NCBI RefSeq assembly: GCF_016649425.1
Contig: NZ_JADRCR010000007.1
Coordinates: forward strand, 151,934 to 215,933
DNA: 64,000 bases
Reading direction: 5' to 3'
Source of the DNA: Limnobaculum allomyrinae
Lineage (GTDB): Bacteria > Pseudomonadota > Gammaproteobacteria > Enterobacterales > Enterobacteriaceae
How positions within the stretch are numbered: the first letter of the stretch is position 1; every line of letters starts with the position of its first letter. The position numbers were made by a program, and so were the translations under genes. A model generated the notes under the pieces. That model did not search any database and was not told the origin of the DNA. It saw only the letters and a program-made list of their open reading frames with translations. Below, piece after piece: positions 46,708-62,441 of this stretch.

Positions 46708-46841
46708 ACAGCGAAAACATCTCCACCATTTTGTTTAACATCACGCCAATTTGTTCAGTTGATGAACACTCAAATTGAAGTTGATAATTTAGCGTTGACA
46801 GCCTGAATAGAGATGGATATGATTCGCCCCGTTCAGACGAT

Positions 46842-46917
46842 TCCTCTGTAGTTCAGTCGGTAGAACGGCGGACTGTTAATCCGTATGTCACTGGTTCGAG
46901 TCCAGTCAGAGGAGCCA
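46842..46917 (+). tRNA. asn tRNA: tRNA-Asn (anticodon GTT)
   Basis: 76 nt TCCTCTGTAGTTCAGTCGGTAGAACGGCGGACTGTTAATCCGTATGTCACTGGTTCGAGTCCAGTCAGAGGAGCCA, identical to enterobacterial tRNA-Asn. The 3' end is followed directly by island DNA with no terminator. Confidence 0.97.
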
Positions 46918-47088
46918 AATAACTATTTTAGGTAGTATGGATGCGTCCACACAAGACCTAGGATAGAAAAATATAGTTAGTTATCAATAGCCTCTCTTCC
47001 ACTCACGTGCATGGAGGCTTTTTGACATCCAAAGAATTTGGGGGCTTAATTGGGGGCCTGTCGGTTTGATAAAAAACGGAGCCCCCAC

Positions 47089-47511
47089 ATGCCGCTTACA
47101 GATATTGCCATCCGCAGCGCCAAGCCCACTCATAAGCCTTACAAGCTCAGTGATAGTCTCGGCCTGTATCTCCTCATCAAACCCAATGGCTCAAAACTCT
47201 GGTACTTGAAGTATCGGATTGATGCGAAGGAACGTAAGCTTGCCTTTGGTGGGTATCCCACTATCACACTCAGCCATGCCCGCTCTCAACGCGAGTTAGC
47301 TCGTTTAACCCTGAGTCAGGGGCTCGATCCCAGTCTTCAAAAACAGCGGGAAAAACAGTCCAGGAAAAACGACCATACTTTTGAATCGGTCGCTCGCAAA
47401 TGGGTTAAGAATCAGCATAAATGGTCAACGAATCGTTCGGCACGAACACTCAGAACGCTAGAGATGTATCTTTTTCAAAAGGCAGCCGGTGTTTGGATGA
47501 CCGCCGGTTAA
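47089..47511 (+). pseudogene. int: Truncated P4-type (tyrosine) integrase; only the N-terminal DUF4102/arm-binding region (about 135 aa) is retained
   Basis: MPLTDIAIRSAKPTHKPYKLSDSLGLYLLIKPNGSKLWYLKYRIDAKERKLAFGGYPTISL is a typical P4-like integrase N-terminus. The ORF ends after about 140 residues with non-homologous tail KAAGVWMTAG. No catalytic R..HxxR..Y domain follows. Confidence 0.75.
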
Positions 47512-47721
47512 GGCGTTGCCTTGCAGGTCAGGGCAACTAGGGTCGTGATCGCCCGAAGGCGCTTCTTTCAGATCACTGGTGCAGATAAACCGCACGGAAG
47601 CTTTCGGGGTGTTGTCTGCGACAACGGTAGGACAAGAGGAAGTCTATAGGTATGAGCAAAAAAGAGGAGCGAAAACACTAAACGCGATGAAGAGAATTTT
47701 TATTGTGATGGGTAATTTGTA

Positions 47722-47907
47722 CTAGCTCATAGCCGAACCGCGAGGTTGCCCATGAAGCAAAGACGTTAGTTGGTCGGATTCTAAATTTAGGATTTTGGCG
47801 ACCTGACTATCACCTAGTTTTCTGTCCTTAATGATTTGGCGAAGGTGTCTTACAAACTCAGATTTGACCATGAGATCCTCGGCCAGCGCCCTCTCAATTT
47901 TTGACAT
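47722..47907 (-). CDS. Small hypothetical protein (61 aa), overlaps the Ner-like gene's stop; possible DNA-binding or accessory partner
   Basis: ORF only. A 14-nt overlap with the upstream gene suggests translational coupling. Weak helix-turn-helix-like segment GDSQVAKILNL. Confidence 0.35.
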   Translation of the reverse strand: MSKIERALAEDLMVKSEFVRHLRQIIKDRKLGDSQVAKILNLESDQLTSLLHGQPRGSAMS

Positions 47908-48169
47908 AACGATCTCCTAAACTCGGTTTTCTTTTCTGATAGCGTGAAGGCCAGATTTCGGCAGGTTCACATTCCAGGGCCCTAGCTATCAGCATTTCAC
48001 CCTTAGGCCAAGGCCTGATTAAGGCATTAGCTAGCGTTGAAGATGCTAGGCCTGCCTCTCTTGAAACCGCCGCCAGTGTTGTCCCCCGCTTTTTTAGGCC
48101 AGCAAGAATATCAGCCGGATGCCAGTCATTTTGAACCATTTGTTTTACTCCTCCATATAACGCATTCAA
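47894..48169 (-). CDS. Ner/Nlp-family DNA-binding transcriptional regulator
   Basis: WHPADILAGLKKRGTTLAAVSREAGLASSTLANALIRPWPKGEMLIARALECEPAEIWPSRY matches the Ner/Nlp (Sfs7) signature. It is divergent from the XRE pair. Confidence 0.75.
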   Translation of the reverse strand: MNALYGGVKQMVQNDWHPADILAGLKKRGTTLAAVSREAGLASSTLANALIRPWPKGEMLIARALECEPAEIWPSRYQKRKPSLGDRYVKN

Positions 48170-48243
48170 CCAATTATCCTATTTTGGGATAATTGCGTAA
48201 ATGGTTGATATTCGATTTTGGGATATCAATCAAGGTTAAAAAA

Positions 48244-48537
48244 ATGACGTCAATTTATTCAGATGAATATCAATTGGTTATAAAAGCTCTTCGGGAGGTT
48301 AGAATTGAAAAAAACATAACTCAAGCAAGCTTAGCCCAGGCTTTAAAGCGACCCCAATCATTTATCGCTAAAGTGGAAAACGGAGAACGGAGGTTAGACG
48401 TGATCGAGTTCTTACATATTGCCTACTTACTATCCATAGAACCAGAAGCTATCTTGAAAGACATATTGACTAAAATTCAGTCAAAAACTCAGATTTGTCA
48501 TATATCACGCAAACAATCCCATTTTGGGATTATTTGA
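48244..48537 (+). CDS. XRE-family (Cro/cI-type HTH) transcriptional regulator, paralog 1
   Basis: Start at MTSIYSDEY (SD aaggttaaaaaaATG). HTH ITQASLAQALKRPQSFIAKVENGERRLDV. Confidence 0.7.
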   Translation: MTSIYSDEYQLVIKALREVRIEKNITQASLAQALKRPQSFIAKVENGERRLDVIEFLHIAYLLSIEPEAILKDILTKIQSKTQICHISRKQSHFGII

Positions 48538-48581
48538 CAACTGATTGATATTTAATCCTAAAAACTGATGGGATTAAGTAT

Positions 48582-48854
48582 ATGGCTTCAATTTATTCTA
48601 ATGAATATCAAATAGTTATTAAAGCACTCCGTGAAGCACGTATAGCCAAGGGGATCACGCAGGAAAGCTTAGCCCAAGCATTAGATCGTCCTCAGTCGTT
48701 TATCGCCAAGGTTGAAAATGGCGAGAGAAGATTAGATGTGGTGGAGTTCGTCCATATTTCTAGTTTGTTATCTCTTAATCCCGCAGATATTATCGAAAAA
48801 ATCATCCCAAAATATACATATTTCGATAAGAAAACAAATTCCAAGAGGAAATAA
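48582..48854 (+). CDS. XRE-family (Cro/cI-type HTH) transcriptional regulator, paralog 2 (tandem duplicate of 48244-48537)
   Basis: About 70% identical to paralog 1 over the first 75 aa (SIYSNEYQIVIKALREARIAKGITQESLAQALDRPQSFIAKVENGERRLDVVEF). Confidence 0.7.
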   Translation: MASIYSNEYQIVIKALREARIAKGITQESLAQALDRPQSFIAKVENGERRLDVVEFVHISSLLSLNPADIIEKIIPKYTYFDKKTNSKRK

Positions 48855-48877
48855 ATTTGGCCTTTGGGAAATATAAA

Positions 48878-49222
48878 TCAGCATAAAAATATGCTTAACA
48901 GCTTGGCATAGACTATCCAATTGGGCCAGTTTGAGTTGACCACTATAATGATCATCCAATCACTATCCGCTATGTTTAATCTAATACTCAGCAAGGACAC
49001 CGCCCTACCTAAAAATTCAGCCGTAAAAGTAAGTTCAGGATCAGATTTAATCAGGTCGCTAACCACACCATCAAACTCGTCGGGCTTATTCCATTTAGTG
49101 AAATCTACACAATATTCTATGACCATCGGCGTCTTGCATAACGGATGATCGATAGCCAATGTCGCCAGCCCGTGCCGGGCCAGGAAGTTTTTAACCGCCT
49201 GATATTCAGATGGCCAAGCCAA
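48878..49222 (-). CDS. Hypothetical protein; the first roughly 75 aa look coding, the 3' part may be frame-shifted read-through
   Basis: ORF only. N-terminal part MAWPSEYQAVKNFLARHGLATLAIDHPL... has protein-like composition. The C-terminal 40 aa are hydrophobic, low-complexity and AT-driven. Confidence 0.3.
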   Translation of the reverse strand: MAWPSEYQAVKNFLARHGLATLAIDHPLCKTPMVIEYCVDFTKWNKPDEFDGVVSDLIKSDPELTFTAEFLGRAVSLLSIRLNIADSDWMIIIVVNSNWPNWIVYAKLLSIFLC

Positions 49223-49474
49223 CAGCGCGGTAGGTCAACTTCATTTTTGGTAGCATCCACTGCCCTATAAGGGATTACGCTAGCATCAGTGAGTAGTCAT
49301 AAAGTAATTCAACATAGAGGACAAAACAGGACATATCAACAGGGATGGCATCAGCGGTCAGGCTTTCAGTCAAAAATGGCAATAGGAAGTTATGGAATAC
49401 AGATCGTAGATTGTTATAAATATAAGCATTAGTCGCTAAAATATTATCTTCATCAATCTTTCGGAGGGAGTCCG

Positions 49475-51430
49475 TTGAATACCGCAGAACAGCAGATTGT
49501 AAAACTAGGGGCTCCAGTAGGAAAAGCAGATGCTTATTTACCACTGGAGCTTATGGAGCCTAAAACGTTTGAGCTATTTTGTTGTGAACTCATCAAAAGA
49601 CGGCTGAAAATCGAAGACGGTAAGATAATTGATGCCATGACGATTGGTATTTCCGGCCAATCACAATTTGGTGCGGATATTGTGTCACATCGCCAGCATG
49701 GTAATCAGGACGTTTATTCGCTGTACGAAGTGAAACGTTGTAAAAAATTTACAGAAAGTCACTATATTTCCACTGTTAAGCGCTTTAATGAACATCGGGA
49801 AAAATGGCAGGTGAATATCAACGAATTTTACATTTTCCTTTGTGAGAAAGCTTCAGCGAAATTAATTGCGGAATACAAAAAACAAGAGGCTCTTTTTAAA
49901 GAACTGAATGTAGTGCATCGTTTACTTGATACGGAAATGATCCACGACTGGCTGAAAAATCTGTATTGTCCGGATCTATTGTATCGCTTTTGTCATGAGA
50001 GTTGGGTCTCTCTCTTTTACGGTGAGCGGGCACTGCTGAATATTAAAAATTATGGCTTGTGGGACTATAATGAATCTTCTGCCTGGCGAAATTACACGCA
50101 TCCATATGAACACATTAATGGTGATACCTATACACTTCAGAACGATCATGTGTTTATTCAGGCGTTTTTACCTAACCTGAAAGGGAGCCGCCTTTCCTGT
50201 TTTATTGATTTTCGTAATGGCCGCTATAGCCATGCTTTGCTGACAATGAGTCAGAATGACCTGCTAAATTCAGCCTTCGAAGGGGCTTATAGCCCACCAG
50301 AGGCGGGGGTCAGACCATGGGTTTTAAAAGAACTTTATGGCGAAAATTATTATTGTGATATCGGTAACTGCCGCCTTGCACTAACCCTAAATGAAACCCG
50401 CTCCCTCTGTGATGCTTTTGATAAATTCTGGAGGTGCTATAAACAGCGCATGGAAGAGATTGACCGGATTTGTCGCACAGTTGATTTCTCGAACAGTACA
50501 CCACTCGGCGATAATATTCATCTCATTACCATTCCTTACTGGCTATGGGGCCGCATCAACGTTTTTTGTCAACATCATGACTATCTGGATACCGAAGGGG
50601 AATGGTCGATATTTAACCCCATGCGTGAACGTCTTATGGTCTTCACCCGTCATAAAAACGAGGTAATGAACGGAGGACATCACGTCACGCTATTGGCCAA
50701 CCGCGATCCTAATTTTGATCGCCTGACTAATCATCGCGTGGCGCTAATCTGGCAACCTCCCAGTCGCTACAATCTCGATAGTCTGGAAGAGGATGTTGTT
50801 GGGCCACGTAATTACTGGGATGCGCTGACGACATATCGCTGGCTAGTGGAGAAATTAATCCCTGCCGCGGATAGCTGGTATTGCGCTAATTTCTTTCCAG
50901 AACGCAGTGGATGGCAACGGCTGTCATTTCTCGTCCCCCGCCATATCCCCTATACATCCGATGATATTTATTCGCACTATCAACCCGAAAGTAATATCTC
51001 TGTTGAACAGGTAGACAGCAAACAGAGTCTGCTGGTGTTACTGACTGAACTACAGAATTTCTTCAATATTTACACTCGACGGGTGTACTTTCGGGCAAGT
51101 GAATTTGAGCAACTCTGCGATGCCTTTCTCTTTTTGTTGAACAAAACTACCGTCAATTACTGGGGTTATATCCGCGGTAGCGTCAATGCTTCGCAGGAAG
51201 AGCGAGAGTCTGTGGTAGCTGCATTACAAAAGTATCGGAGAGAAAGTACGTTTTATGATAAGAATTCATCACTATGTGACTATCTGCTTCGAGGCATGAT
51301 GGCGCTATTTCGCGATGGTGACTGCCATATTAACGAAGTGGAAGCGATAAAGGTTGCGACGCTGTTACGCCCCTTTGTGGATAAGGTGTCGGAGGGACGT
51401 TTTTTGCGGCGCTGTCAGAAGCGGTTATGA
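49475..51430 (+). CDS. Large uncharacterised protein (651 aa) with N-terminal Mrr-like PD-(D/E)xK restriction-endonuclease-fold domain; first gene of a four-gene island operon
   Basis: TTG start with a strong SD (ggaggga, 5-nt spacer). Motif GADIVSH ... YSLYEVKRCKKF gives D ... E-x-K spacing typical of Mrr_cat/PD-(D/E)xK. No Walker motifs. Cys/Trp-rich remainder. Confidence 0.6.
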   Translation: MNTAEQQIVKLGAPVGKADAYLPLELMEPKTFELFCCELIKRRLKIEDGKIIDAMTIGISGQSQFGADIVSHRQHGNQDVYSLYEVKRCKKFTESHYISTVKRFNEHREKWQVNINEFYIFLCEKASAKLIAEYKKQEALFKELNVVHRLLDTEMIHDWLKNLYCPDLLYRFCHESWVSLFYGERALLNIKNYGLWDYNESSAWRNYTHPYEHINGDTYTLQNDHVFIQAFLPNLKGSRLSCFIDFRNGRYSHALLTMSQNDLLNSAFEGAYSPPEAGVRPWVLKELYGENYYCDIGNCRLALTLNETRSLCDAFDKFWRCYKQRMEEIDRICRTVDFSNSTPLGDNIHLITIPYWLWGRINVFCQHHDYLDTEGEWSIFNPMRERLMVFTRHKNEVMNGGHHVTLLANRDPNFDRLTNHRVALIWQPPSRYNLDSLEEDVVGPRNYWDALTTYRWLVEKLIPAADSWYCANFFPERSGWQRLSFLVPRHIPYTSDDIYSHYQPESNISVEQVDSKQSLLVLLTELQNFFNIYTRRVYFRASEFEQLCDAFLFLLNKTTVNYWGYIRGSVNASQEERESVVAALQKYRRESTFYDKNSSLCDYLLRGMMALFRDGDCHINEVEAIKVATLLRPFVDKVSEGRFLRRCQKRL

Positions 51431-51598
51431 GCGAGAAATTCTAACAAACGTATAATTAAAAGCGTTTTATAAAATCTGTTTGCAAAACACAAATGAAGCA
51501 AAATTGTTCTATTTCTCTCAGCAGAAAGGTTAAGATTACATTTTATTCATCGAGTCATAGTGAATATAATTCCCAAAAGATGTTTTAAGGATTTAAAC

Positions 51599-53488
51599 AT
51601 GAGGATTACCGCTACCCAACTCGAACAATGGGCCGATTCAAGAGACGCTCAGGGAATGTTACCCATTTTAATCCGGCGATTAATTAGCTCGACCTCCACA
51701 ATAACGGCGTTGAGTATGCCGGGAGGAGATTCAGTTTCATCTCCAGGATGGGATGGTATCGTTCAGGTCGAGAAAGGAAACGCTTGGGTTCCTGATGGCT
51801 CATCTTTTTGGGAAATGGGATGCTCTTCCGATATTATTGATAAAGCACGTAGAGATTTCCATAAGAGAAAACATTGCATTTTGCCTTCAGAAGCAGCCAA
51901 AAGTTGTTTCATATTTATTTCTCCTCGCCGTTGGCCGAAAAAAGATAACTGGCTTAAAGAAGCTAAAGCTGAAAATTTTTGGAGCAACGTCTATGCACTT
52001 GATGCCGACGATCTGGAAGCATGGCTAGAAAATACTCCGACTGTATCTCTATGGTTTGGTGAACTAATCGGTCACATCGGAGCTGGAGTTGAATCTGTCT
52101 CCCATTTCTGGGAACGATGGCGTAATCAATCACGGATTCCACTGACCAAAGAGGCTTTACTGGCAGGTAGAGAAAACGAGGTAAAGAGTCTGGATCGCTG
52201 CCTATTAGATGAAAAAGAACACATTGTTATCAAGGCAGACAGCCAGGAAGAAGCCATTGCTTTTGCTTGTGCCAGATTAATAGAACAAGGTTATGAGAAC
52301 GTTTCTGCATGCATTACCTCCAATGATGGATGGCGTTTTATAGATAGAAACCCATCAATTAAGTTTTGTTTGGCGATAACCAGTCGTATTGCCAGAGAAA
52401 ACAGCGCCCATCCGGAACAAACAACCATTACGCCATTATCGCTGGGCGATCATGCTAGTGCTCACCATAAGTCTACAGATACTATTACGTTAGAACGCCT
52501 TACCAGAAGTAATTTTGAAGAACGCCTCTGTACGCTTGGAGAAGAAGAGTCCGACGCCCGAAGGTTATCACGAACAACAGGACGTTCTTGGTCCGTATAT
52601 CGACGTCTCAGGGCTAAAAATCCGGCTATATCATCACCTTCATGGCTTACAACACCATTAGTAAATGCATTAATAACCTTAACTTTAATCGGATGTTGGA
52701 ATGCCAAAAAGGAAGGTGATAAATATTGCATTGAAATGCTCACACAAAGAAAATATGAAGAGTTAGAACGAGAATTATGTGATATTTCGCTTTTAGACGA
52801 CTCTCCCGTATTGCAAATTGGATATATCTGGAAAGCTAAATCATCGATTGAATTATTGTATCAGTTAGCCCCCCGGTTTACTGAAAGTAACTTGGCTCGT
52901 TTTTTTCTAGTTGTAAAAACGATATTGCTTAAACCAGATCCCGCACTGGAACTCAAAAGCGAAGAACGTTGGATGGCCGCCATCCATGGGAGAGTCCGCT
53001 CGGAATCAGATTTTATCCTGAAATCAATTACTGACTCACTAGTGAAGCTCAGGGTTTATGCCGAAAACAGTGAAGATATTAACTCACGTTACATCATAAC
53101 GGCTATTGATGAACTCGTTCATGACCTGTTGATAGATGCCGATGGTGAAAGATGGCTGTCATTAGCAGATGTGTTATGTCCATTAGCTGAAGCATCACCA
53201 GACATCTTTTTAAAATCAATAGAGATTAGCCTATCTTCAAAAGAGGCCAACGTGACTCGCTTGTTAACCGAAACGAGTGAAAGCACAGGATTTGGCATGC
53301 GTTGCTGGCATGCGGACTTATTAAATGCGTTAGAAATCCTGGCCTGGAACCCTAGGCGATTACTCAGGGTCGCGACTATTCTTACAACACTATCTGCATT
53401 AGAAATTAAGGGGAATTGGGCAAATACGCCAGAAAACACCCTAGACTCTTTACTTCGGCCTTATTGGCCACAGACCATTGGCTACTGA
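51599..53488 (+). CDS. Large uncharacterised protein (about 629 aa); N-terminal conserved-looking block followed by a helical repeat region
   Basis: Start at ATG 51599 (SD aagga, 7-nt spacer); the track's 51560 is a GTG. Block PGGDSVSSPGWDGIVQVEKGNAWVPDGSSFWEMG. Possible HEPN-like Rx4-6H (RDFHKRKH). No NTPase motifs. Confidence 0.55.
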   Translation: MRITATQLEQWADSRDAQGMLPILIRRLISSTSTITALSMPGGDSVSSPGWDGIVQVEKGNAWVPDGSSFWEMGCSSDIIDKARRDFHKRKHCILPSEAAKSCFIFISPRRWPKKDNWLKEAKAENFWSNVYALDADDLEAWLENTPTVSLWFGELIGHIGAGVESVSHFWERWRNQSRIPLTKEALLAGRENEVKSLDRCLLDEKEHIVIKADSQEEAIAFACARLIEQGYENVSACITSNDGWRFIDRNPSIKFCLAITSRIARENSAHPEQTTITPLSLGDHASAHHKSTDTITLERLTRSNFEERLCTLGEEESDARRLSRTTGRSWSVYRRLRAKNPAISSPSWLTTPLVNALITLTLIGCWNAKKEGDKYCIEMLTQRKYEELERELCDISLLDDSPVLQIGYIWKAKSSIELLYQLAPRFTESNLARFFLVVKTILLKPDPALELKSEERWMAAIHGRVRSESDFILKSITDSLVKLRVYAENSEDINSRYIITAIDELVHDLLIDADGERWLSLADVLCPLAEASPDIFLKSIEISLSSKEANVTRLLTETSESTGFGMRCWHADLLNALEILAWNPRRLLRVATILTTLSALEIKGNWANTPENTLDSLLRPYWPQTIGY

Positions 53489-55346
53489 TGAACAAAAGCT
53501 TCTCGTACTAGATATGATTATTAAAAATCAGGATACCATTGCATGGCGCTTTCTCTACGCTCAAATTAGTTCTTTTAATCATCTTTATATGGAAAATGCC
53601 AGACCTAAATGGCGAGATGACGATGCAGGTAGTGCACAGATGAGAGGTACTTTTTTCGCCGCATACTACTCCGATCTTGGGGAACGAATACTCACATTAG
53701 CGGAAGGCAATACGGAAAGGTTAGCTGGCTTAATTAAGCATATAGACCACTTTGAAGGTTCCTATCAGACACGGCTAATTCACCTAGTTAAACAAGCGAT
53801 CTCTTTTCCCGATGAGGAAAAAGAAATTATAAGAGAAGCCTTGTGCCATTATCTACATTGGCATAATTCTTATAATACATCTGGAGATAAAAAAAGCAGA
53901 GCCACAGCTGAACTATTAGCACCTTTATTTAATCTATTATCGCCTAAAGATATCATTCTTGATAAACGCCGACTATTTACCCATCATTATCCTGATTTGC
54001 CAGAAGGAGATGATAAAGATTATATTAAGCGTAGTGAAAGAATAAAGAATCTGCGGATTGAGGCAATAGAAGAAATTTATTCGATTCAAGGATGGAGCGG
54101 TATATCATCATTATTAATATCCGTGCAATCTTCGTCAGCAATTGGTGACACATTGGCTTTTAGTTCTATCTCTTACATAGATTCGTTTTCATGGATTATA
54201 GAAAAATTTTCAGAGGACGACTTCCCCTTCCACTACCAATTAATTAGTTCATTTTATAATTGGTTGCCAACAGAAAAACAGCAAGCTTTAATCAACTCTT
54301 CAATATTGAATAATGAGATAAACAATGATGTAAAAATAGCAGCGTTCTTCTCTGCGCTCCCGCTGAATATGACAACTTGGAAAATACTTCTAAAATATAC
54401 AGAAAGCGCTCGAACTCTATATTGGAAAAAGATAAGCCATCAAAATTTCTGGATCGATAACGACGACGAAGCTGACTATTTTATCGATAAAATGATATCT
54501 GTTGGGAGATATATATCAGCATTCAATTTAGTTAAGCATCATCTGGAAAAAGTATCTTGGCAAAACATACTAAAGCTATTAAATGGGTTCAGAAACACTA
54601 CTGAAAAAGATGTTCCATTGCCAAACGGTTGGTATTTATCTAAAGCGATTGAATACTTAGAGTTATCAGGGAAAGTTTCTCGTTTAGACTTAGCATTGCA
54701 GGAGTTCTTCTTTTTCTCTGCATTCAGAAACAGTGAGAAAGAAGCAAAAAATCTTTATGCCGAATTACTTTCTAACCCACCTCTTTTTATACAACTGGTA
54801 TCTCTTGCCTATAAGCCAACGTCCGATCCAAATTATAAACTGGATGAATCCCTACATTCTGCTGCACAACAAGCTCATAGAATACTAGATCATAGCAATG
54901 GATTACCTGGTCAAGAAGAAGATAACGACATTAATGAGTCTCTATTTCACCATTGGATCCATGAAGTCAGAAAACTGGCAATGGAGAACGATAGATGCGA
55001 TATCACCGACTATCTAATAGGTAAATGGCTCGCCACTTCACAATATCAAAATGATGATTTGTGGCCATGTTCATTCGTCAGGCATCTACTAGAAGAAACA
55101 GAAAACGATAGTATTCGAGAGGGTTTCTACTTTGGTATTATTAGTAACCGTGGTGTAACTATGCGAGGCTATCATGAGGGCGGCGACAAGGAAAGAAAGT
55201 TGGTCGATAAATATCGTGAGATTGCTAATAAATTATATTTCTCCTACCCTAAAGTAGCCAGTATTTTTGACGAACTGATGTCTTATTATAATTTTGATGC
55301 TATAAATGAAGATCAAAACGCAAAATTAAGAACCGAAGGTTATTAA
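53478..55346 (+). CDS. Large uncharacterised all-helical protein (about 622 aa); start overlaps the upstream stop, possibly a frameshifted continuation of the preceding gene
   Basis: Frame opens with a TTG that overlaps the 51599 gene's stop by 11 nt. The next in-frame ATG is 53514 with a poor SD. Helical repeat composition matches the C-terminal half of the upstream protein. Confidence 0.5.
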   Translation: MATDEQKLLVLDMIIKNQDTIAWRFLYAQISSFNHLYMENARPKWRDDDAGSAQMRGTFFAAYYSDLGERILTLAEGNTERLAGLIKHIDHFEGSYQTRLIHLVKQAISFPDEEKEIIREALCHYLHWHNSYNTSGDKKSRATAELLAPLFNLLSPKDIILDKRRLFTHHYPDLPEGDDKDYIKRSERIKNLRIEAIEEIYSIQGWSGISSLLISVQSSSAIGDTLAFSSISYIDSFSWIIEKFSEDDFPFHYQLISSFYNWLPTEKQQALINSSILNNEINNDVKIAAFFSALPLNMTTWKILLKYTESARTLYWKKISHQNFWIDNDDEADYFIDKMISVGRYISAFNLVKHHLEKVSWQNILKLLNGFRNTTEKDVPLPNGWYLSKAIEYLELSGKVSRLDLALQEFFFFSAFRNSEKEAKNLYAELLSNPPLFIQLVSLAYKPTSDPNYKLDESLHSAAQQAHRILDHSNGLPGQEEDNDINESLFHHWIHEVRKLAMENDRCDITDYLIGKWLATSQYQNDDLWPCSFVRHLLEETENDSIREGFYFGIISNRGVTMRGYHEGGDKERKLVDKYREIANKLYFSYPKVASIFDELMSYYNFDAINEDQNAKLRTEGY

Positions 55347-55632
55347 GCTTAATGATTATTTAAGGATTATACAATGGGAAAAAACAGTAAGCTAAAACGA
55401 GATTTAAAAAAGAAAAAAGACAACAAGAGGTCTAATATAAAATCTTTTAGCCGAAAAAAATCAATAGCTCTTCCCTCCCCATTCAACTTTAAAAAAATCT
55501 ACCGATGATAGTATTTCACAAGTAAGGATTAAGCTGATCTCTATTTTTTCAGAATATAATCCTTTAGACCTACTCCTTACTATAAGCATCTCTGAATTAT
55601 GGCTACCTAATATTTCTGCTCAAGTTAAGCAC

Positions 55633-58600
55633 ATGTTAGCCCTTAATATTTTACTATCAATGAAAACCAATGAATTCAATAATAAAGAAATAAAAACATA
55701 CGAACAAGGGAGCGAATTTCTTAACTCTCTCTATAAGCTATTACCTAACATACCCCAACTAGAAGATTATATCCCTGAACAGGACTGGGGAGAAGTAAAA
55801 GTATTATGGGATAAGAGTATTTACAAAATTTTCTATGGTGGTGCAATAGAGCGAATTTATGATTATATCAAAGCATTTGAACTTTGCTATAGTGAATATC
55901 CTAATATCCTTAAGCAGATGGAAAATATTCTTATTTTGCAAAACAGTTTTTTATCAGAAATGAATGCAAATGACTTTATTTTCAATCAAGAGTTCTCACC
56001 TGGTTATATCGAAATCCCTTCCGAAAAATTCTGGTCGATTTGTCGTCAAAAGTTGATTAATACTAATGAACTATTTCAAAAACTAATGCCTGATATTGAT
56101 AGTAGCTTTATTAAAAACATTGGCGATATAAAAAGTATTAATAGCACTAATGAACTCGCTAATACCATTATGGAGGGAGTAGCTCTTCCTGCTATTGGTA
56201 TAAGAATTGAGAATAATATTTATCCATTATCATTTCGGGGAATGGTAAACGTTATTATAGAATATTGTTCATCAATACATACAACTGTCGAATTTTCTGA
56301 TGCTTTATCAAAATTTATATCACAACGTTTTGATAATATCATTGAAGAACCATTTTTACTTCGCCAGGAGCAAAAAACGCTTCCATATAAATTCTCAGGA
56401 CTATTACAAGAAAATAATAAGATTTTCTTATTCATACTGTTTGATATTAAAACACCTGAAAAATTAAAGCATTTAGCAAAGGAAGTTTATCAATGTTTAG
56501 CTAATGGCCGATGGGATTTAAAAACCATTTATTCTCCACATAGAATAAGTATTCAAAATACATTAGGAAAAAAACCAACAATAGATGATATTGAATTTAT
56601 TTTTGTAAGCTCTAATGTTTCAACTAGCATGTATTTTTTTGAACCACCAGAGTTGAAATGTAAACATCATATATTTTCATTAACTGAATTTATCGCTTTA
56701 TTTGATTCAATAAATAATATCGATGAATTATCATCATTTTTATCTTATCTAGAGAAGTACAATAAAAAAATTAGCCCATTCTCTTCTGTGATAGATAAAT
56801 TTGCATCATTTAGAGGGAGTCACTCTGTTTTAGAAGATGGTGCTATTGGTTTTAATATGATTTCCCTTGACCCTCATTGGGGTTCTAACTGGAGGTATGA
56901 TGAACTGAAAAAATACTGGTCACAGGCACCTTTAAACTTTCCTGATATTGATGTGAAATGGGATATCAGAGATAATTATCAAGGTAACGTTTCATTAATA
57001 TCAAAAAGACATTTTTATATATCATGGACGACTCAAATAAATAATTGCACAATACATTTCTGTGCTAATTGCGAGCCATTAATAAATGAAGACCATCTCA
57101 ATGGTCAACTGCTCACATTATTTTTAGAATGTATATGTGACGCCCTATCACAACGAAAAGATATTTTAGAGAATATATCATTCTTAGGCATCGAGAAAAT
57201 CTCGGTTTATTGTTCAGTTGATAACGAATATTTAGTCAGCAGTGAATTAGATATCATTGAAAACACTTCTCATGAATTATTTTCACATACATCTCTGATT
57301 AGTAGCAATACATCCTCAGCAATCATAGATCTGAGTGTTAATTTGCCTTTAATCCAAAATAGACTCAATAAACCAAAAGATGCAAGCTTCCAGGCGGATA
57401 TTTGCATTGTATTTTTAAAATTACTCTCAAATATACTTCACATTAAATTTCCAGAATCCGTTGAAAACCAGATTAATAATACAAGAAACAATGCTCCAAG
57501 AATGGCAATTTCCAGTGAAGAACGCCCATTCGATACGCTAGAAATAAAACCCAAAACTCCCGAACCCAAACATTTTAAATTAGCTAGAAAAACATTAGCT
57601 GGCAGAATAAAAGACACTGGTATTAAGGAAGGAATTTACGAGTTGCAGGCAGCTAAAGATATTATTAATTCTTTAGCTGATTTTTTCAGAGAAAAAATCC
57701 ATGCGCAAATATCCTCATTACATAGAGATAGCCTGCTGTGTTTTGTACTTGAAAATTATGATGCTTATGTAGCTGAAGATCAGCGAAAGAAGAATAATAT
57801 TATTTTAAGTCTTCAACATGAAGTCAACTATGACAGAGCAGAAAAACTGGCTAAACAAAGCACAGAATTCAACCGCATATCTTCTAATTATAGATACTTA
57901 CTGGAATGCACTTTAAGCCTTAATTCTAAAAACGAAAAGATACCGACTAACAATGAAATATTACAACTCATTGCTGACATTGATTGGCTAATGGTCCTTT
58001 ATAATTTTAGTGATATACTGCATAACGATATAGATGTTGGTGGTGTAATAATTGATAATCTTTATATTCCCCAAGTATTCTTCTCTGAAGACCGAGAATT
58101 AAAAGAAAATAAATTTAGTGAAGAGCAAGCCAATTATAAACTTGGCTATAATTTAAATGAAAATGATGAAGTCGAACCCAATATTATAAATGATAAGTTG
58201 GATTCCCTTGATAGGGTATTCTTACAAGATCTTGACTTTAAGTATTCAAATTTACTGGCTGTTTTTTCTATTTTATTTCAATGGTCTAGAATAAATCATT
58301 CTCAAATTAGCCTTTCATATCAAACAACAAAAGCAGAATTGATAAAAGTAATTTTAAATAATTGTATAAACTTAGCAGAAGAAGAGGCAAACAGAATCGT
58401 TGATTTTCTGATTTTAGATCCAAATAAAATACGAAAACTATTAGGCTCTGAAATTAATTCGTTTGATGTTCCCATATCAGATCACAATAAAAGAGCACAC
58501 AGATATAACATCAGGCCATTAATTGAACTCAACAATGGTAATATTATTTGGGGAGCTGCTGCTGCCTATCGAGCTGGCACAATATGGATATCTCATATAG

Positions 58601-59154
58601 CAAATGGGTATCTTCCAGCTGAATTTGAATGGAGTCATATTTCTCATGAAGTACGTCAAATAAAAGAGCAAATTGAAAAGCAATTAGAGATGATGACGTT
58701 TAATATAGTAAAAAGATTTGCGACGCGACTTGAACAGGGTATTGATTTTAAAAAACGCTTTCCAAATGAAAATTTTCCTACCGTCGGGGATTTTGATACC
58801 TTAGCATACTTCCCCGAAAAAAATACTTGGCTAAATATAGAGTGTAAATATAACCAGCCATACTATTGCATTAAGGATATGCGCCGCTTAAGAGAGAAAA
58901 TTTTTGGCCGAGGAGATAAAAGAGGGCAAATTGGAGAAATAGAAAATAGAATGAAGTTTTTAATGCTTAATCAAGATAAGCTGCGCTCACTATTAAACTG
59001 GAATCAACCATCAACTGACTGCCAAGAAAAAGTTATTAACCTATATATTAGCAGACAGATTTATTGGTGGTTAAGAAACCCTCCATATGAGACAGACATT
59101 AACTTCATACAAGTAGATGCTTTAGAAAGCTGGTTGCAACAAAACTTAAAATAA
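55633..59154 (+). CDS. Very large uncharacterised protein (1173 aa), markedly AT-rich, with a C-terminal PD-(D/E)xK-like motif
   Basis: About 30-32% GC versus about 43% at the start of the operon. Near the C-terminus TVGDFDTLAYFPEKNTWLNIECKYNQ gives D ... E-x-K. No Walker motifs, signal peptide or TM helices. Confidence 0.55.
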   Translation: MLALNILLSMKTNEFNNKEIKTYEQGSEFLNSLYKLLPNIPQLEDYIPEQDWGEVKVLWDKSIYKIFYGGAIERIYDYIKAFELCYSEYPNILKQMENILILQNSFLSEMNANDFIFNQEFSPGYIEIPSEKFWSICRQKLINTNELFQKLMPDIDSSFIKNIGDIKSINSTNELANTIMEGVALPAIGIRIENNIYPLSFRGMVNVIIEYCSSIHTTVEFSDALSKFISQRFDNIIEEPFLLRQEQKTLPYKFSGLLQENNKIFLFILFDIKTPEKLKHLAKEVYQCLANGRWDLKTIYSPHRISIQNTLGKKPTIDDIEFIFVSSNVSTSMYFFEPPELKCKHHIFSLTEFIALFDSINNIDELSSFLSYLEKYNKKISPFSSVIDKFASFRGSHSVLEDGAIGFNMISLDPHWGSNWRYDELKKYWSQAPLNFPDIDVKWDIRDNYQGNVSLISKRHFYISWTTQINNCTIHFCANCEPLINEDHLNGQLLTLFLECICDALSQRKDILENISFLGIEKISVYCSVDNEYLVSSELDIIENTSHELFSHTSLISSNTSSAIIDLSVNLPLIQNRLNKPKDASFQADICIVFLKLLSNILHIKFPESVENQINNTRNNAPRMAISSEERPFDTLEIKPKTPEPKHFKLARKTLAGRIKDTGIKEGIYELQAAKDIINSLADFFREKIHAQISSLHRDSLLCFVLENYDAYVAEDQRKKNNIILSLQHEVNYDRAEKLAKQSTEFNRISSNYRYLLECTLSLNSKNEKIPTNNEILQLIADIDWLMVLYNFSDILHNDIDVGGVIIDNLYIPQVFFSEDRELKENKFSEEQANYKLGYNLNENDEVEPNIINDKLDSLDRVFLQDLDFKYSNLLAVFSILFQWSRINHSQISLSYQTTKAELIKVILNNCINLAEEEANRIVDFLILDPNKIRKLLGSEINSFDVPISDHNKRAHRYNIRPLIELNNGNIIWGAAAAYRAGTIWISHIANGYLPAEFEWSHISHEVRQIKEQIEKQLEMMTFNIVKRFATRLEQGIDFKKRFPNENFPTVGDFDTLAYFPEKNTWLNIECKYNQPYYCIKDMRRLREKIFGRGDKRGQIGEIENRMKFLMLNQDKLRSLLNWNQPSTDCQEKVINLYISRQIYWWLRNPPYETDINFIQVDALESWLQQNLK

Positions 59155-59338
59155 ATATGAAAATCAATGGAGTATGCAGTTCAAAACTTACCAGCATATA
59201 ACGGTAAAACAGATGTGGAGTGTTAGTTTATTGTACTTGACGTATATACGGGAAAAAAAGGTGGTCACTCTGGTGGTCTTGACAACCCTAATTTTTAAGT
59301 TTAGCCTAACAATCAGCCAGTTATTGGCAAATGCGATC

Positions 59339-59354
59339 CCAGTCAGAGGAGCCA
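59339..59354 (+). repeat. attR: 16-bp direct repeat of the tRNA-Asn 3' end (ccagtcagaggagcca)
   Basis: Exact match to 46902-46917. Followed by a copy of the native tRNA downstream terminator. Confidence 0.85.
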
Positions 59355-59359
59355 CATTT

Positions 59360-59397
59360 AGAAAGGCCCGCTATTTATTAGCGGGCCTTTTGCTTTC
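59360..59397 (+). terminator. Displaced native tRNA-Asn terminator (aaaggcccgc-tatttatta-gcgggccttt + tgcttt)
   Basis: Near-identical to the terminator after the second tRNA-Asn (62442-62473). It may also terminate the convergent GGDEF-EAL gene. Confidence 0.7.
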
Positions 59398-59407
59398 CAG
59401 CTTTTAT

Positions 59408-61975
59408 TTACTTCTGTAACTCTGGCATTTGCCATTCATCCAGTGGGATTGGTCGTCCAAAATAGTAGCCCTGTCCTCTCGGACAGCCTAACTGATATAG
59501 CCTGTCCGCTACCTCTCTGGTTTCAATTCCTTCAGCAATAAGAGGAACCCCTAATCCTTTCGCCAAACGAATCACAGATGAAATAATCGCCTCATTTCGA
59601 GCGTTCTCCAAAATACCACTAACAAAATCCCGATCTATTTTTAGACAATCAAACTGTAAGCGATGTAAATAAGAGAGGCTGGAAAAACCGGAGCCAAAAT
59701 CATCGATCGCGACAAAAACGCCTAATGCGCGAATTCTCCCTAATTGCTCACTAATAACCGTGCCCTTTTCAAGCAAAATGGATTCGGTTAGCTCTACGGT
59801 CAGGTTACATGCTGATAGCTGAAACTCATTTAGCGTGGCTACAATGACATCATAAAAATCGGCCTGATACAGTTGGCGAGCAGAAACATTAATATGAATA
59901 TTAAAATCAGACGGCCAGCCTGAAGCTATTTTTAATGCCAGTTGTCGACAAGATTCTCTCAACACCCAGCGACCAATAGATAAAATTAAGCCCGACTCCT
60001 CTGCCAGAGGAATAAATTTATAGGGGGGAACCATACCATAGGCTTTGCTCTGCCAACGAATCAGAGCCTCTGCGCCAATAACCTTATGACTGTGTAAATC
60101 AATTATCGGTTGGAAATAAACTCTCAGCTCCTGATTCAACTCAGCCTGATTAAGTTCCGTTAGCATTTGAGTATTTTCAATGGCCCGGCCCATCATTTCC
60201 GGACGATAAATTTCAAAGGCACCTGCACCTTTTTTTCTGGCGGTAGCCAGTGCGACAGAAGCATTTCTTAGAATCACCGCTAACGTTTTGTCATCAAATT
60301 CTTCTTTAACTAAACCAATGTTGCCGGCAAACAGTGGATGTTCACTTTCACAACCCAGAGAGTTAATATAAATATGCACATAACGAGCGATTTCATCCTC
60401 AGCGCACTCAGCACCACAACCTTCAGGGTAACAAACGGCAAACTCAATATCGTTAACTCTTGCCAATAACGTACAGGAAGGCACAATTTCTTGTAGTTGT
60501 TTAACAAACTCACACAACAGCGCCTCGCCTTTCTGATAACCAAGGCTATTATTCACCGCATTGATATTATCCAGACTCAGCAATATCAGCCCCTTCCATG
60601 CAGTGGCATGTTCCTGAGCACTTAATACCTGGATCTGCTTTTGTAGCCCTTCTTTACTCAACAAACCAGTGACAGAATCATAATAAACCTGATGCTCCAA
60701 TCGGGAGAAGGCCGTCGATAACGCTGATGACATCTCATTAAAGGCATCATTTAATTGCTTAATCTCTTTCAATTCAAAAGAAGATTGATGAGCAGGAGAC
60801 CATTTTTGTCCGGCTAACAGACGAGCCTGAGTTGCTACATATTGAATTGGGGTAGTCACTCTGGAGAGAATAACCCAGGCCATCGTGACGCCCAGTAAAA
60901 AAATGGCAAAAATCAAACTGAAGGTCGTTTTTCTTTCATCATTAAGTTGGCCAACAAAATCACTTTGAGGTATAGCGACAACAATACGCCAGTTATGTAA
61001 CCCTAACTCTTTACCAAAAGAGACAACTCTCCCATAGTAAGTTTCACTATCAATATGTAAGGTCATCTTGCTATGTTCAGGATGAGATAAGTAAGGCGCA
61101 ATAGCGCGAATAATCACACTCTCACTATTTTCCGGCGTTAACAAATGAGCGCGTTCTTGTTCTGGCAGACTCCCCTCAGGTTTGATGATCGGTTTTTCTA
61201 TTGTCGAATGAGAAATAATTTCATTGTTATCATTAACGATGAAAATGACGCCATTACCCAAATTAGGAATCTGCTGCAAATAACGATTAAACCGGTTCAA
61301 CTTAATATCGCTTGATACCACACCAACATAGCGGTTATGCATATCATAAACTGGGCTACTGTATGAAATACTGATGCCTCTTATTGCATCCAAATCCCAA
61401 TAGGCTCTGGTCCAGGATGGTTTTTGGCTGGCATTCACATCACGAAACCAGGGGCGAGTACGGGGATCGTATTTCTCTATGGTTTTGATGATTGAATTTT
61501 GAATCCCCATTCCCGAGTAGAAATTCAGCGTTCCTTGAGTTCGCTTATCTTTCAAAATTAACGTATAGGTATCGGTAACCGTTTCACGACTAACCCCAAT
61601 ATAATCGCCATTTACTGCACCAAACGCTACCAGACTAAGCTGAGGGGAATATGGAAATACCCGTTTCATGGTTGCTATCAGTGGTGATTCAAACTCATCC
61701 AGATTAACCATCTCGCCAGACAGGAGCTCTTGCATTGTCATTTCAATCGATGCATTGGCCTGTATTGGAATTTTCAAAAAGTTAAACAAATTGGTATGAA
61801 CATACTCAATATGGGCAGAAATCAGCTTATCACTAAGGCTATCGAAGATGCGGTTTTCACTGCGATATTGCAAAAAGACCGCTAAACCAAACATGATGGT
61901 TAATATAAAGACAAAAAGCGATGTCACAATCAGTTTTAAAGAGATTGAGTTTAATAATCGCACTGATTTCACCAC
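59408..61975 (-). CDS. Membrane sensor c-di-GMP phosphodiesterase: TM - periplasmic Cache-like domain - TM - HAMP - degenerate GGDEF (NDIEF) - EAL
   Basis: 855 aa; two TM helices bracket a roughly 300-aa periplasmic domain. The GGDEF region begins YYDSVTGLLSK but the signature is LARVNDIEFAV (GG lost). The EAL region has QPIIDL...GAEALIRW and downstream catalytic acidic residues. Confidence 0.8.
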   Translation of the reverse strand: MVKSVRLLNSISLKLIVTSLFVFILTIMFGLAVFLQYRSENRIFDSLSDKLISAHIEYVHTNLFNFLKIPIQANASIEMTMQELLSGEMVNLDEFESPLIATMKRVFPYSPQLSLVAFGAVNGDYIGVSRETVTDTYTLILKDKRTQGTLNFYSGMGIQNSIIKTIEKYDPRTRPWFRDVNASQKPSWTRAYWDLDAIRGISISYSSPVYDMHNRYVGVVSSDIKLNRFNRYLQQIPNLGNGVIFIVNDNNEIISHSTIEKPIIKPEGSLPEQERAHLLTPENSESVIIRAIAPYLSHPEHSKMTLHIDSETYYGRVVSFGKELGLHNWRIVVAIPQSDFVGQLNDERKTTFSLIFAIFLLGVTMAWVILSRVTTPIQYVATQARLLAGQKWSPAHQSSFELKEIKQLNDAFNEMSSALSTAFSRLEHQVYYDSVTGLLSKEGLQKQIQVLSAQEHATAWKGLILLSLDNINAVNNSLGYQKGEALLCEFVKQLQEIVPSCTLLARVNDIEFAVCYPEGCGAECAEDEIARYVHIYINSLGCESEHPLFAGNIGLVKEEFDDKTLAVILRNASVALATARKKGAGAFEIYRPEMMGRAIENTQMLTELNQAELNQELRVYFQPIIDLHSHKVIGAEALIRWQSKAYGMVPPYKFIPLAEESGLILSIGRWVLRESCRQLALKIASGWPSDFNIHINVSARQLYQADFYDVIVATLNEFQLSACNLTVELTESILLEKGTVISEQLGRIRALGVFVAIDDFGSGFSSLSYLHRLQFDCLKIDRDFVSGILENARNEAIISSVIRLAKGLGVPLIAEGIETREVADRLYQLGCPRGQGYYFGRPIPLDEWQMPELQK

Positions 61976-62434: not shown

Positions 62435-62441
62435 TATTTAG

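What the first reader, a model, noticed from the sequence alone, without database searches (positions are those of the whole stretch)
49475..59154. Four-gene operon of large uncharacterised proteins (651/629/622/1173 aa) in a tRNA-Asn island: candidate novel nuclease-based defence or conflict system
The four ORFs are co-directional and tightly spaced (130 bp, an 11-nt overlap, 286 bp) and total about 9.7 kb. They are the only large cargo of a tRNA-Asn island whose other genes are regulators. None has a Walker A/B or helicase motif, a signal peptide or TM helices, so they are not an ABC, helicase or secretion system. Two carry PD-(D/E)xK-like signatures: the first gene's N-terminus (GADIV...YEVKRCK) and the last gene's C-terminus (GDFDTL...NIECKY). 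The middle two are helical-repeat proteins. I could not match this gene set to any defence system I know (e.g. Druantia, Zorya, Lamassu, Hachiman, Wadjet, BREX, DISARM, Shedu, PARIS, Septu), all of which contain recognisable ATPase or helicase components that are absent here. Island context plus nuclease folds plus giant NTPase-free partner proteins makes this the best candidate for an undescribed system in the window.
Basis: partly seen in the sequence, partly recalled or inferred. Interest (0 to 1): 0.82.

Follow-up and report, generated by a model that had tools for sequence, protein, structure and literature searches.

The report
Three separate nuclease-sensor defence genes
The supposed four-gene operon is really three unrelated single-protein "nuclease plus sensor" phage-defence-type genes stacked in a decayed tRNA-Asn island; two of them (an Avs-like and a Upx-like gene) are each broken by a one-base insertion, and only the first, which belongs to a large unannotated family, is intact.

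Summary
The ORFs, their spacing, the tRNA-Asn island and both PD-(D/E)xK motifs are real. The "four-gene NTPase-free system" is not.

- **ORF2 and ORF3** are halves of one 1248-codon gene (A), split by one extra G at about 53480.
- **ORF4** is the 3' part of a 1259-codon gene (B), cut by an extra A in an A7 run at 55491-55497.
- **B** is a divergent Upx homologue. Its family profile hits the Upx cryo-EM chain 9wuf (E 2e-8), with the catalytic D/ExK aligned.
- **A** is an Mrr/FokI-type nuclease joined to a STAND (Avs/NLR) fold that has lost its P-loop, followed by a helical region. It has weak similarity to PD-lambda-4A (Avs8A).
- **ORF1 (g1)** is intact. It has a Cap4/Mrr-type nuclease and a roughly 440-aa C-terminal module. 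That module recurs in about 1,500 protein clusters fused to HNH, DUF4365, PNP, Schlafen, TIR-like or caspase effectors, and matches no searched library.

Co-occurrence fails. g1 was next to A in 0 of 79 A loci. B was next to A only in one Enterobacterales clade. A, B and g1 each stand alone in defence islands elsewhere.

Verdict: a defence-island remnant holding variants of known kinds. The g1 C-terminal module is the only real lead.

The parts
46842..46917 (+). tRNA-Asn (GTT), the integration site and left end of the island
   Evidence: ARAGORN. Its 3' end is repeated at 59339.
47050..47511 (+). Remnant of a P4-type tyrosine integrase: 153 codons where intact relatives have about 420
   Evidence: NCBIfam integrase domain, E 2e-21, covering profile positions 6-142 of 413. 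About 70-75% nucleotide identity to the integrases of the Klebsiella and Photorhabdus islands.
47894..48169 (-). Small HTH gene of the island backbone, homologous to the HTH_35 gene that precedes the cargo site in related islands
   Evidence: blastn, 70-72% identity to the HTH_35 gene region of L001, L010 and L015.
49475..51430 (+). g1, intact, 651 aa. An N-terminal PD-(D/E)xK nuclease (D68, E85, K87) is followed by a C-terminal module (about aa 215-651) that relatives share under swapped effector domains.
51599..53488 (+). Gene A, 5' part (629 codons): PD-(D/E)xK nuclease (D52, E72, K82), a STAND-like NBD-HD-WHD without a P-loop, and the start of the helical region
53478..53482 (+). Frameshift site in gene A. 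The window reads ATT GGC TAC TGA; the inferred ancestral reading is ATT GCT ACT GAT. One extra G.
   Evidence: Sequence. Family consensus WPQTxAxxEQ. Deleting one G gives a 1248-aa ORF. The split products occur on 2 contigs.
53478..55346 (+). Gene A, 3' part (622 codons): the presumed sensor region. Its structure was not predicted.
   Evidence: phrog_18693 positions 638-1250. Full-length homologues are 70-72% identical.
55374..55508 (+). Gene B, original start (MGKNSKLKRDLKKKK...), ending at a premature stop after the frameshift
   Evidence: Translations compared with the Klebsiella homologue's N-terminus. Reconstruction.
55491..55497 (+). A7 run, the frameshift site in gene B. An A6 run would restore the frame.
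   Evidence: Sequence. Reconstruction gives 1259 aa.
55633..59154 (+). Gene B, remaining ORF (1173 codons): a Upx-like protein with a C-terminal PD-(D/E)xK (D1053/D1055, E1070, K1072). It lacks the conserved N-terminal LWLPNIS..VKH motif.
   Evidence: 67% identity to residues 77-1247 of the Klebsiella homologue. NCBIfam Upx E 3.8e-6. Family profile against PDB 9wuf_A (Upx) E 2e-8, with catalytic residues aligned. Invariant columns.
59339..59377 (+). Right end of the island: a direct repeat of the tRNA-Asn 3' end plus its downstream sequence
   Evidence: the repeat finder family D2, 92% identical to 62419-62457.

Best explanation
The stretch is the cargo of an immobilised tRNA-Asn integrative island (46917-59354). 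The island's integrase is reduced to a fragment.

The cargo is three independent cassettes. Each encodes one large polypeptide that joins a PD-(D/E)xK nuclease effector to a large recognition region, the design of abortive-infection immune sensors.

1. **g1** is intact. It has an N-terminal Cap4/Mrr-type nuclease and a roughly 440-aa C-terminal module. Inferred: the module binds a phage-derived cue and releases the nuclease.
2. **A** (ORF2 plus ORF3) is an Avs-like protein. It has an Mrr/FokI-type nuclease, a STAND nucleotide-binding fold whose P-loop is deleted, and a helical sensor. Inferred: it binds a phage structural protein and oligomerises without NTP, as proposed for KpAvs8.
3. **B** (ORF4 plus about 85 upstream codons) is a divergent Upx. 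Inferred by analogy: its N-terminal region captures the phage large-terminase ATPase domain and activates the C-terminal nuclease.

A and B travel together as a two-gene block in Enterobacterales, but each also occurs alone elsewhere. In this genome A and B each carry a single-base insertion, so they are most likely recently inactivated. g1 is the only obviously functional gene.

Shown: gene structure, folds, homologies, lack of co-occurrence, frameshifts. Inferred: triggers, activation mechanism, defence phenotype.
For: **Gene structure.** ORF2 and ORF3 are one gene. ORF4 is N-terminally truncated. Single-base repairs restore 1248-aa and 1259-aa ORFs with no other stops.

**B is Upx-like.** NCBIfam Upx matches 13 of 31 family members, best E 6.6e-8. 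PADLOC Upx matches. The family profile hits 9wuf_A collinearly, 734-1158 against 742-1179, with GDxD...ECK aligned on Upx D1161/E1176/K1178 (residues from PMC13099982). Upx senses terminase (PMC13601566).

**g1.** Nuclease fold. The C-terminal module occurs in 1559 clusters, fused to HNH, DUF4365, PNP, Schlafen, Mrr, caspase and TIR-like N-termini. BLASTP aligns g1 219-651 with 301-759 of a PNP fusion, E 1e-33.

**Independence of the cassettes.** (0 of 79, and 7 of 79), plus 20-22, 28-30, 102, 103, 112 and 113.

**Defence-island neighbours.**
- For A: CBASS, Wadjet, type I RM, Gabija, SIR2 and toxin-antitoxin pairs.
- For B: HepT/MNT and a P2-like prophage integrase.
- For g1: a 2054-aa STAND protein, PemK and anti-restriction genes.

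**Mosaic origin.**
Against: - No experiment shows defence for g1, A or this B clade.
- The B-to-Upx match covers only the C-terminal third and scores far below NCBIfam's equivalog cut-off (24 against 1900 bits).
- The A-to-Avs8A similarity is about 130 residues. It is absent for the window's own halves and for 18 of 30 members.
- The STAND assignment rests on a predicted structure.
- The 3' half of A and all of B were not modelled.
- The g1 C-terminal module has no structural or sequence relative of known function, so "sensor" is inferred from domain-swapping alone.
- Conservation of the A-B block at similar divergence (A 70-72%, B 67-68% aa) could reflect functional coupling rather than mere linkage.
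Confidence: 0.75

Rival explanations
1. A and B form a cooperating two-gene system, for example a Upx-like terminase sensor paired with a P-loop-less STAND-like nuclease. g1 may be an accessory. In that case the locus would be one system.
For: - A and B are adjacent on the same strand, 27-44 bp apart, in every member of the Enterobacterales clade.
- They diverge in parallel: A 70-72% and B 67-68% aa identity, as one 7.6-kb blastn block.
- Evans et al. report that some Upx genes are genomically associated with an Avs1 variant or a second Upx (PMC13601566).
- A lacks an NTP-binding loop and might depend on a partner.
Against: - A occurs without any B-family neighbour in 72 of 79 loci across many phyla.
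- B relatives occur without A.
- SeUpx, HpUpx and Avs8A each work as single proteins (PMC13601566, PMC12236752).
- g1 was next to A at none of the 79 A-family loci, and the g1 homologues examined in other genera have neither A nor B beside them.
Confidence: 0.15
2. The frameshifts are not inactivating. They could be sequencing errors. They could be bypassed by slippage at the A7 run or by +1 frameshifting at UAC-UGA. Or the split products could be functional, so all genes would be active or phase-variable.
For: - Each gene has exactly one single-base insertion and no other stop.
- One insertion lies in an A7 homopolymer.
- Catalytic residues are intact in all parts.
- Homologues are also found split in other assemblies, L003 and L017.
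Against: - The identical split proteins are recorded on 2 contigs, under NCBI's MULTISPECIES Limnobaculum label.
- The insertion in A is G to GG, not in a homopolymer run, and I saw no stimulatory element in the sequence just upstream.
- A7 is short for efficient transcriptional slippage (general knowledge).
- The 1173-aa ORF lacks the nearly invariant LWLPN..K motif of the family.
- Truncated and deleted copies elsewhere (L069, P0019, P0020) point to recurrent decay.
Confidence: 0.12
3. The genes are not anti-phage. They could be toxins or addiction modules serving the island itself, or tools of conflict between mobile elements, or degraded phage genes.
For: - A belongs to a PHROG family, so it occurs in (pro)phage genomes.
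- All three genes sit on mobile islands with toxin-antitoxin pairs.
- No phenotype has been measured.
Against: - B is homologous to an experimentally validated defence protein.
- A has the architecture and fold of validated Avs proteins.
- The N-terminal domains fused to the g1 C-terminal module match effector models of CBASS and pAgo-associated systems and a PADLOC caspase model.
- Prophages and satellites are well-known carriers of defence genes.
Confidence: 0.08

Closest known systems
Upx (Gao et al. 2020; NCBIfam NF042954; PADLOC PDLC02221; cryo-EM structure PDB 9wuf)
   Same: Gene B is a single polypeptide of about 1250 aa. Its family profile aligns collinearly with the Upx middle and C-terminal region, and the D...ExK catalytic triad falls on Upx D1161/E1176/K1178. 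It occurs as a stand-alone gene in islands and next to prophage integrases.
   Different: Similarity is very low: 24 bits against the 1900-bit equivalog cut-off. No detectable sequence match exists in the N-terminal, terminase-binding two thirds. In Enterobacterales it is always paired with gene A. Here it is frameshifted.
Avs8 / PD-lambda-4A (Vassallo 2022; PMC12236752; PMC13581612)
   Same: Gene A has the same order of parts and a similar size, 1248 aa against a 1283-position profile: an N-terminal Mrr-type nuclease, a STAND fold, then a C-terminal region. The HMM similarity is weak but recurrent and collinear. KpAvs8 is reported to have degenerate Walker motifs.
   Different: The A family has no P-loop at all in any of the 43 aligned sequences. 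HMM similarity is limited to about 130 residues. There is no Avs8B-like partner. The trigger is unknown. Identity with KpAvs8 could not be tested.
Avs4 / Avs5 (antiviral STAND proteins; PDB 8dgf, 9jap, 9nc9)
   Different: No sequence similarity was detected. These proteins have working Walker motifs and need ATP.
Cap4-type and Mrr-type nuclease effector domains (CBASS Cap4, Lamassu LmuA, the Avs N-terminus)
   Different: No SAVED domain, CD-NTase, LmuB/SMC partner or STAND module is present. The remaining 440 aa match nothing known.
NTPase-free effector-sensor single proteins such as Dsr1 (SIR2 plus the Avs7-type sensor; PMC13581612)
   Same: g1 and its relatives combine one conserved large C-terminal module with interchangeable immune effectors and have no NTPase.
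   Different: The module is different and shorter (about 440 aa), and there is no experimental evidence.

Membership tests
Upx | Single polypeptide of about 1240-1270 aa | tested here: inconclusive
   The window ORF is 1173 aa because of a frameshift. Removing one A restores 1259 aa. Intact homologues are 1245-1249 aa.
Upx | C-terminal PD-(D/E)xK nuclease with catalytic D...ExK (SeUpx D1161, E1176, K1178) | tested here: met
   D1053/D1055, E1070 and K1072 are invariant and align with 9wuf_A GDIDLL...IECK.
Upx | Score above the NCBIfam equivalog cut-off (1900 bits) | tested here: not met
   24.4 bits, E 3.8e-6, covering only profile positions 729-1150. 13 of 31 family members match, best E 6.6e-8.
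Upx | N-terminal sensor that binds the phage large-terminase ATPase domain | not testable with these tools
   No sequence match to the Upx N-terminal domain.
Avs (antiviral STAND), including Avs8/PD-lambda-4A | Central STAND (NBD-HD-WHD) fold | tested here: met
Avs (antiviral STAND), including Avs8/PD-lambda-4A | Walker A / P-loop NTP-binding motif | tested here: not met
   No [GA]xxxxGK[ST] pattern. The beta-1 to alpha-1 connection is two residues long, within the conserved 'EADSxEEA' stretch, in all 43 aligned sequences.
Avs (antiviral STAND), including Avs8/PD-lambda-4A | N-terminal effector domain (Mrr-type nuclease in Avs8A and Avs4) | tested here: met
Avs (antiviral STAND), including Avs8/PD-lambda-4A | Sequence membership in PD-Lambda-4_A | tested here: inconclusive
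   12 of 30 members match, best E 1.4e-6, always at about 525-670 against profile 557-688 of 1283. The window's halves give no hit at E 0.1 or below.
Avs (antiviral STAND), including Avs8/PD-lambda-4A | C-terminal repeat (TPR-like) sensor | not tested
   Residues 416-629 of the model are all-helical. The 622-aa 3' half was not modelled.
   g1-family profile: 0 of 79 A loci. B-family profile: 7 of 79, all in one clade. g1 stands alone in 3 genera. The blocks have different nucleotide identity.
Lamassu (LmuA) | LmuA together with an LmuB SMC-like ATPase partner | tested here: not met
   The PADLOC LmuA hit (E 6.6e-4) covers only the nuclease domain, aa 24-143. No SMC-like gene is in the island or next to g1 homologues.
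CBASS Cap4-type effector | A SAVED or CARF ligand-sensing domain and a neighbouring CD-NTase | tested here: not met

The most novel reading that the evidence does not exclude
The C-terminal module of g1 (about 440 aa, roughly residues 215-651) may be an undescribed, widespread, NTPase-free phage-sensing or regulatory domain. It would define a new family of single-protein immune receptors. About 1,500 clusters at 50% identity carry it, and at least seven effector types are swapped onto it: Mrr/Cap4 nuclease, HNH, DUF4365, PNP nucleosidase, Schlafen, TIR-like and caspase. Separately, the A family would be a STAND immune receptor that has dispensed with nucleotide binding across a whole, phylum-spanning family.
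Probability: 0.4. Interest if true: 0.7.

Novelty: new variant of a known kind. Interest (0 to 1): 0.45.

Why it matters
- **Annotation.** It corrects a tempting over-reading. Adjacent large unannotated ORFs in an island can be stacked single-gene systems and pseudogene halves rather than an operon.
- **The g1 C-terminal module.** It joins many classic immune effectors, yet Pfam (2025), PADLOC (2023), NCBIfam (June 2026) and the PDB have no match for it. It is a concrete target for trigger screens.
- **The A family.** It is a natural test of whether a STAND-fold receptor can signal without a P-loop, a question already raised for KpAvs8.
- **Maintenance of defence genes.** The A-B block shows a Upx-type gene travelling with a STAND-like nuclease. 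Both are repeatedly broken in different genomes, which bears on the cost of keeping such genes.

Tried and rejected
- **A and B as paralogues or "a second Upx".** Rejected: hhalign probability 0.2% and BLASTP shows nothing.
- **Profile searches of A and g1 against PDB sequences.** No meaningful hit.
- **Pfam on all ORFs and on all g1-family members.** Nothing found.
- **Megablast of the region against E. coli genomes and plasmids.** No match.
- **Promoter and terminator scan.** Counts were no higher than in shuffles, so it says nothing about operon structure.
- **Full-length A structure.** Shorter homologues P0060 and P0114 lack the nuclease N-terminus, so only the 5' half was modelled.
- **Supplementary tables of the Upx and Avs papers.** Wanted to check whether these accessions are already classified. 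They are not held.
- **afdb50 fold library.** Unavailable.
- **Programmed frameshifting.** Considered, judged unlikely, and kept as a low-confidence rival.
Full report
**Observation**

- The four co-directional ORFs exist at the stated coordinates and spacings.
- The window comes from Limnobaculum (Budviciaceae). ORF4 is 100% identical to a "MULTISPECIES: hypothetical protein [Limnobaculum]", and ORF1 matches a protein of L. allomyrinae BWR-B9.
- tRNA-Asn lies at 46842-46917. A 39-nt direct repeat of its 3' end plus downstream sequence lies at 59339-59377.
- The island is therefore about 12.4 kb. It holds a 153-codon integrase remnant, small HTH genes, and the region in question.
- No Pfam family matches any of the four ORFs at E 0.1 or below, apart from one sub-threshold hit for ORF3 (YozE_SAM_like, 16.6 bits against a cut-off of 25). 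None carries a Walker A pattern.

**Gene count: three genes, two of them broken**

- ORF2 and ORF3 match positions 4-629 and 638-1250 of a single PHROG family of 1258 positions.
- A fused translation finds more than 500 full-length relatives of about 1250 aa. The closest, at 70-72% identity, are in Klebsiella, Serratia, Salmonella, Photorhabdus, Pectobacterium and E. coli.
- The family consensus across the junction is WPQTxAxxEQ. The window reads ACC ATT GGC TAC TGA where ACC ATT GCT ACT GAT would give WPQTIATDEQ. Deleting one G yields an uninterrupted 1248-aa ORF.
- ORF4 aligns with residues 77-1247 of a 1247-aa Klebsiella protein.
- The missing start, MGKNSKLKRDLKKKK, sits at 55374 in another frame. 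Deleting one A from the A7 run at 55491-55497 yields a 1259-aa ORF.
- The annotated 1173-aa product lacks the nearly invariant LWLPN..K motif of the family.
- The exact split proteins are recorded on two contigs, so the insertions are probably real. Each gene has only this one lesion, so inactivation is recent.

**Gene B (ORF4) is Upx-like**

- The NCBIfam model for the anti-phage protein Upx matches it at E 3.8e-6. It matches 13 of 31 family members, best E 6.6e-8.
- The PADLOC Upx model matches the intact homologues.
- A profile of 31 family members hits one PDB chain only: 9wuf_A, the Upx cryo-EM structure. The match has E 2e-8 and is collinear (734-1158 against 742-1179). It ends with GDfDvLAY...niECKY over GDIDLLAW...vIECKD.
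- Those are the Upx catalytic residues D1161/E1176/K1178 (PMC13099982). The corresponding residues are invariant in the B family.
- Upx is a single-protein system whose N-terminal part senses the phage large terminase (PMC13601566).
- The match is far below the equivalog cut-off and does not reach the N-terminal two thirds. B is therefore a distant relative, not an equivalog.

**Gene A (ORF2 plus ORF3) is Avs-like without a P-loop**

- The AlphaFold2 model of the 5' half is confident (pLDDT 89.6, pTM 0.83).
- Foldseek independently ranks EfAvs5 (E 5e-8), AVAST5, Avs4 (E 6e-6), SAMD9, NLRP14 and Apaf-1 on top.
- The nuclease motif is D52...E72...K82. D52 and E72 are invariant, and K82 is conserved in at least 90% of sequences. 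The lysine sits on the following helix.
- Where a STAND protein has beta-1, GxxGxGKT and alpha-1, all 43 aligned sequences have a two-residue turn within the conserved "EADSxEEAVAFACA" stretch. The nucleotide-binding loop is absent.
- hhalign shows no relation between A and B.
- Twelve of 30 A-family members weakly match PADLOC PD-Lambda-4_A, best E 1.4e-6. The match is always at A 525-670 against profile 557-688 of 1283.
- PD-lambda-4A is Avs8A: an Mrr nuclease, a STAND NTPase and a repeat sensor. It binds HK97-fold capsid protein and then degrades DNA, and its partner Avs8B is dispensable (PMC12236752).
- A 2026 survey notes that KpAvs8 has degenerate Walker motifs (PMC13581612). A may be that kind of protein, but I could not obtain the sequences to test this.

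**Gene g1 (ORF1) is a nuclease on a shared, unannotated module**

- D68 and K87 are invariant, and E85 is nearly invariant.
- The word-indexed search found only 15 relatives. An exhaustive profile search of 1.84 billion representatives found 1559 at E 1e-3 or below, 773 at 1e-10 or below, and 180 at 1e-30 or below.
- Of the best 150, 63 have the nuclease plus the module. Another 60 have the module behind an unrelated N-terminus, and these N-termini fall into 10 sequence clusters.
- Those N-termini include HNH (40 proteins), DUF4365 (10), PNP_UDP_1 (3), Schlafen AlbA_2, Mrr_cat, caspase and TIR-like sequences.
- PADLOC recognises only these N-termini: as effectors of CBASS and of pAgo-associated systems, and with its caspase model. 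It never recognises the shared module.
- BLASTP aligns g1 219-651 with 301-759 of a PNP fusion (E 1e-33).
- One conserved module with interchangeable immune effectors is the signature of a sensor-effector defence protein. The sensing role itself is inference.

**Co-occurrence and context**

- A genome-collection scan returned 79 loci with A homologues. They span Proteobacteria, Acidobacteriota, Verrucomicrobiota, Bacillota, Streptomyces, Elusimicrobia, CPR phyla and others.
- The g1-family profile finds no neighbour in any of them. The B-family profile finds a neighbour in 7, all from the Enterobacterales clade whose A is at least 90% identical to the Klebsiella copy.
- Elsewhere A sits alone next to various defence genes:
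  - CBASS and ParDE;
  - an AAA_15/RloB pair in an integrase island;
  - HepT/MNT;
  - Wadjet JetBCD, type I RM methylases and recombinases;
  - Gabija plus SIR2.
- B relatives stand alone next to HepT/MNT in Nitrosomonas and next to P2-like prophage integrases.
- g1 relatives stand alone in three genera:
  - Salmonella, beside PemK and a 2054-aa STAND protein;
  - Providencia, in an island with anti-restriction genes;
  - Saccharospirillum.
- At the DNA level, the g1 cassette (49471-51430) is 90% identical to the Salmonella copy, with sharp edges. The A-B block (51536-59161) is one 7.6-kb segment at about 72% identity to Klebsiella and others.
- The Klebsiella (A-B cargo) and Salmonella (g1 plus STAND cargo) islands share the same backbone: a P4-type integrase, an Integrase_1 gene and an HTH_35 gene. 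The window keeps remnants of it. This cargo site therefore accumulates different defence cassettes.

**Mechanism**

- Each gene is best read as a self-contained abortive-infection sensor. A recognition region holds a PD-(D/E)xK nuclease in check until a phage cue is bound.
- For B, the cue is probably the large terminase, by analogy with Upx.
- For A, it is probably a conserved phage structural protein, with oligomerisation through a nucleotide-free STAND fold.
- For g1, the cue is unknown.
- In this genome only g1 is intact.
- The main rival is that A and B cooperate. It rests on their strict adjacency and parallel divergence within one clade, and on the published note that some Upx genes are linked to an Avs1 variant. 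I give it about 0.15.

**Verdict**

- The four-gene-system interpretation is refuted by its own co-occurrence criterion. The defence-island and nuclease parts are right.
- B is a new divergent member of a known system.
- A is a P-loop-less variant of the Avs design, possibly already covered by Avs8.
- The g1 module is the one element absent from every library searched.

Noticed in passing
window 48175-48854: Two tandem paralogous XRE-type HTH genes lie at 48193-48537 and 48582-48854, with near-identical cores (...YQLVIKALREVRIEKNITQASLAQAL.RPQSFIAKVENGERRLDV...). Three copies of a 17-nt palindrome-like motif, TATCCTATTTTGGGATA, lie at 48175, 48209 and 48515. These are probably operator sites of an island regulatory switch.
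   Followed up: no
window 62332-62457 and 46815-46920: A second tRNA-Asn (62359-62434) has a 106-nt stretch 94% identical to the first. The sequence downstream of this second copy matches the island's right end. The island therefore inserted into one of two near-identical tRNA-Asn loci.
   Followed up: partly
L003 8711-12453; L017 13734-17540; L069 10001-12944; P0019, P0020: The A-B block is broken in other genomes too. B is split 251+994 aa in a Klebsiella assembly and 1015+237 aa in Photorhabdus akhurstii. In P. luminescens only internal A (aa 230-538) and the 3' part of B remain. Truncated A proteins occur in Enterobacter and Photorhabdus. This recurrent decay suggests a fitness cost.
   Followed up: partly
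window 53000-59200; L001, L004: GC falls from about 0.43 (g1 and the 5' part of A) to 0.36 (the 3' part of A) and 0.31 (B). The same gradient (A 0.41-0.42, B 0.33) is kept in Klebsiella and a second host, whose flanks are 0.52-0.60. The block is compositionally foreign everywhere and is a likely H-NS target.
   Followed up: partly
L014-L017, L020, L069 (and L004 18370-19512): A Fic-domain gene (355-380 aa) lies on the opposite strand immediately downstream of B in most Enterobacterales A-B islands. It is absent from the window.
   Followed up: no
P0263 (873 aa), from the g1-module search: One relative carries Schlafen AlbA_2, HATPase_c_4 and an APAZ-like region, matching a PADLOC pAgo model over residues 40-424. 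The g1-type module then sits where that 1121-position pAgo model continues for about 650 further positions. This may be a module replacement in a pAgo-type architecture.
   Followed up: partly
window 59408-61975 (-) and 62597-63775 (-): Outside the island lie a dCache-GGDEF-EAL signalling protein and a fimbrial adhesin-like protein (Pfam hits). These are ordinary chromosomal genes and not part of the finding.
   Followed up: no
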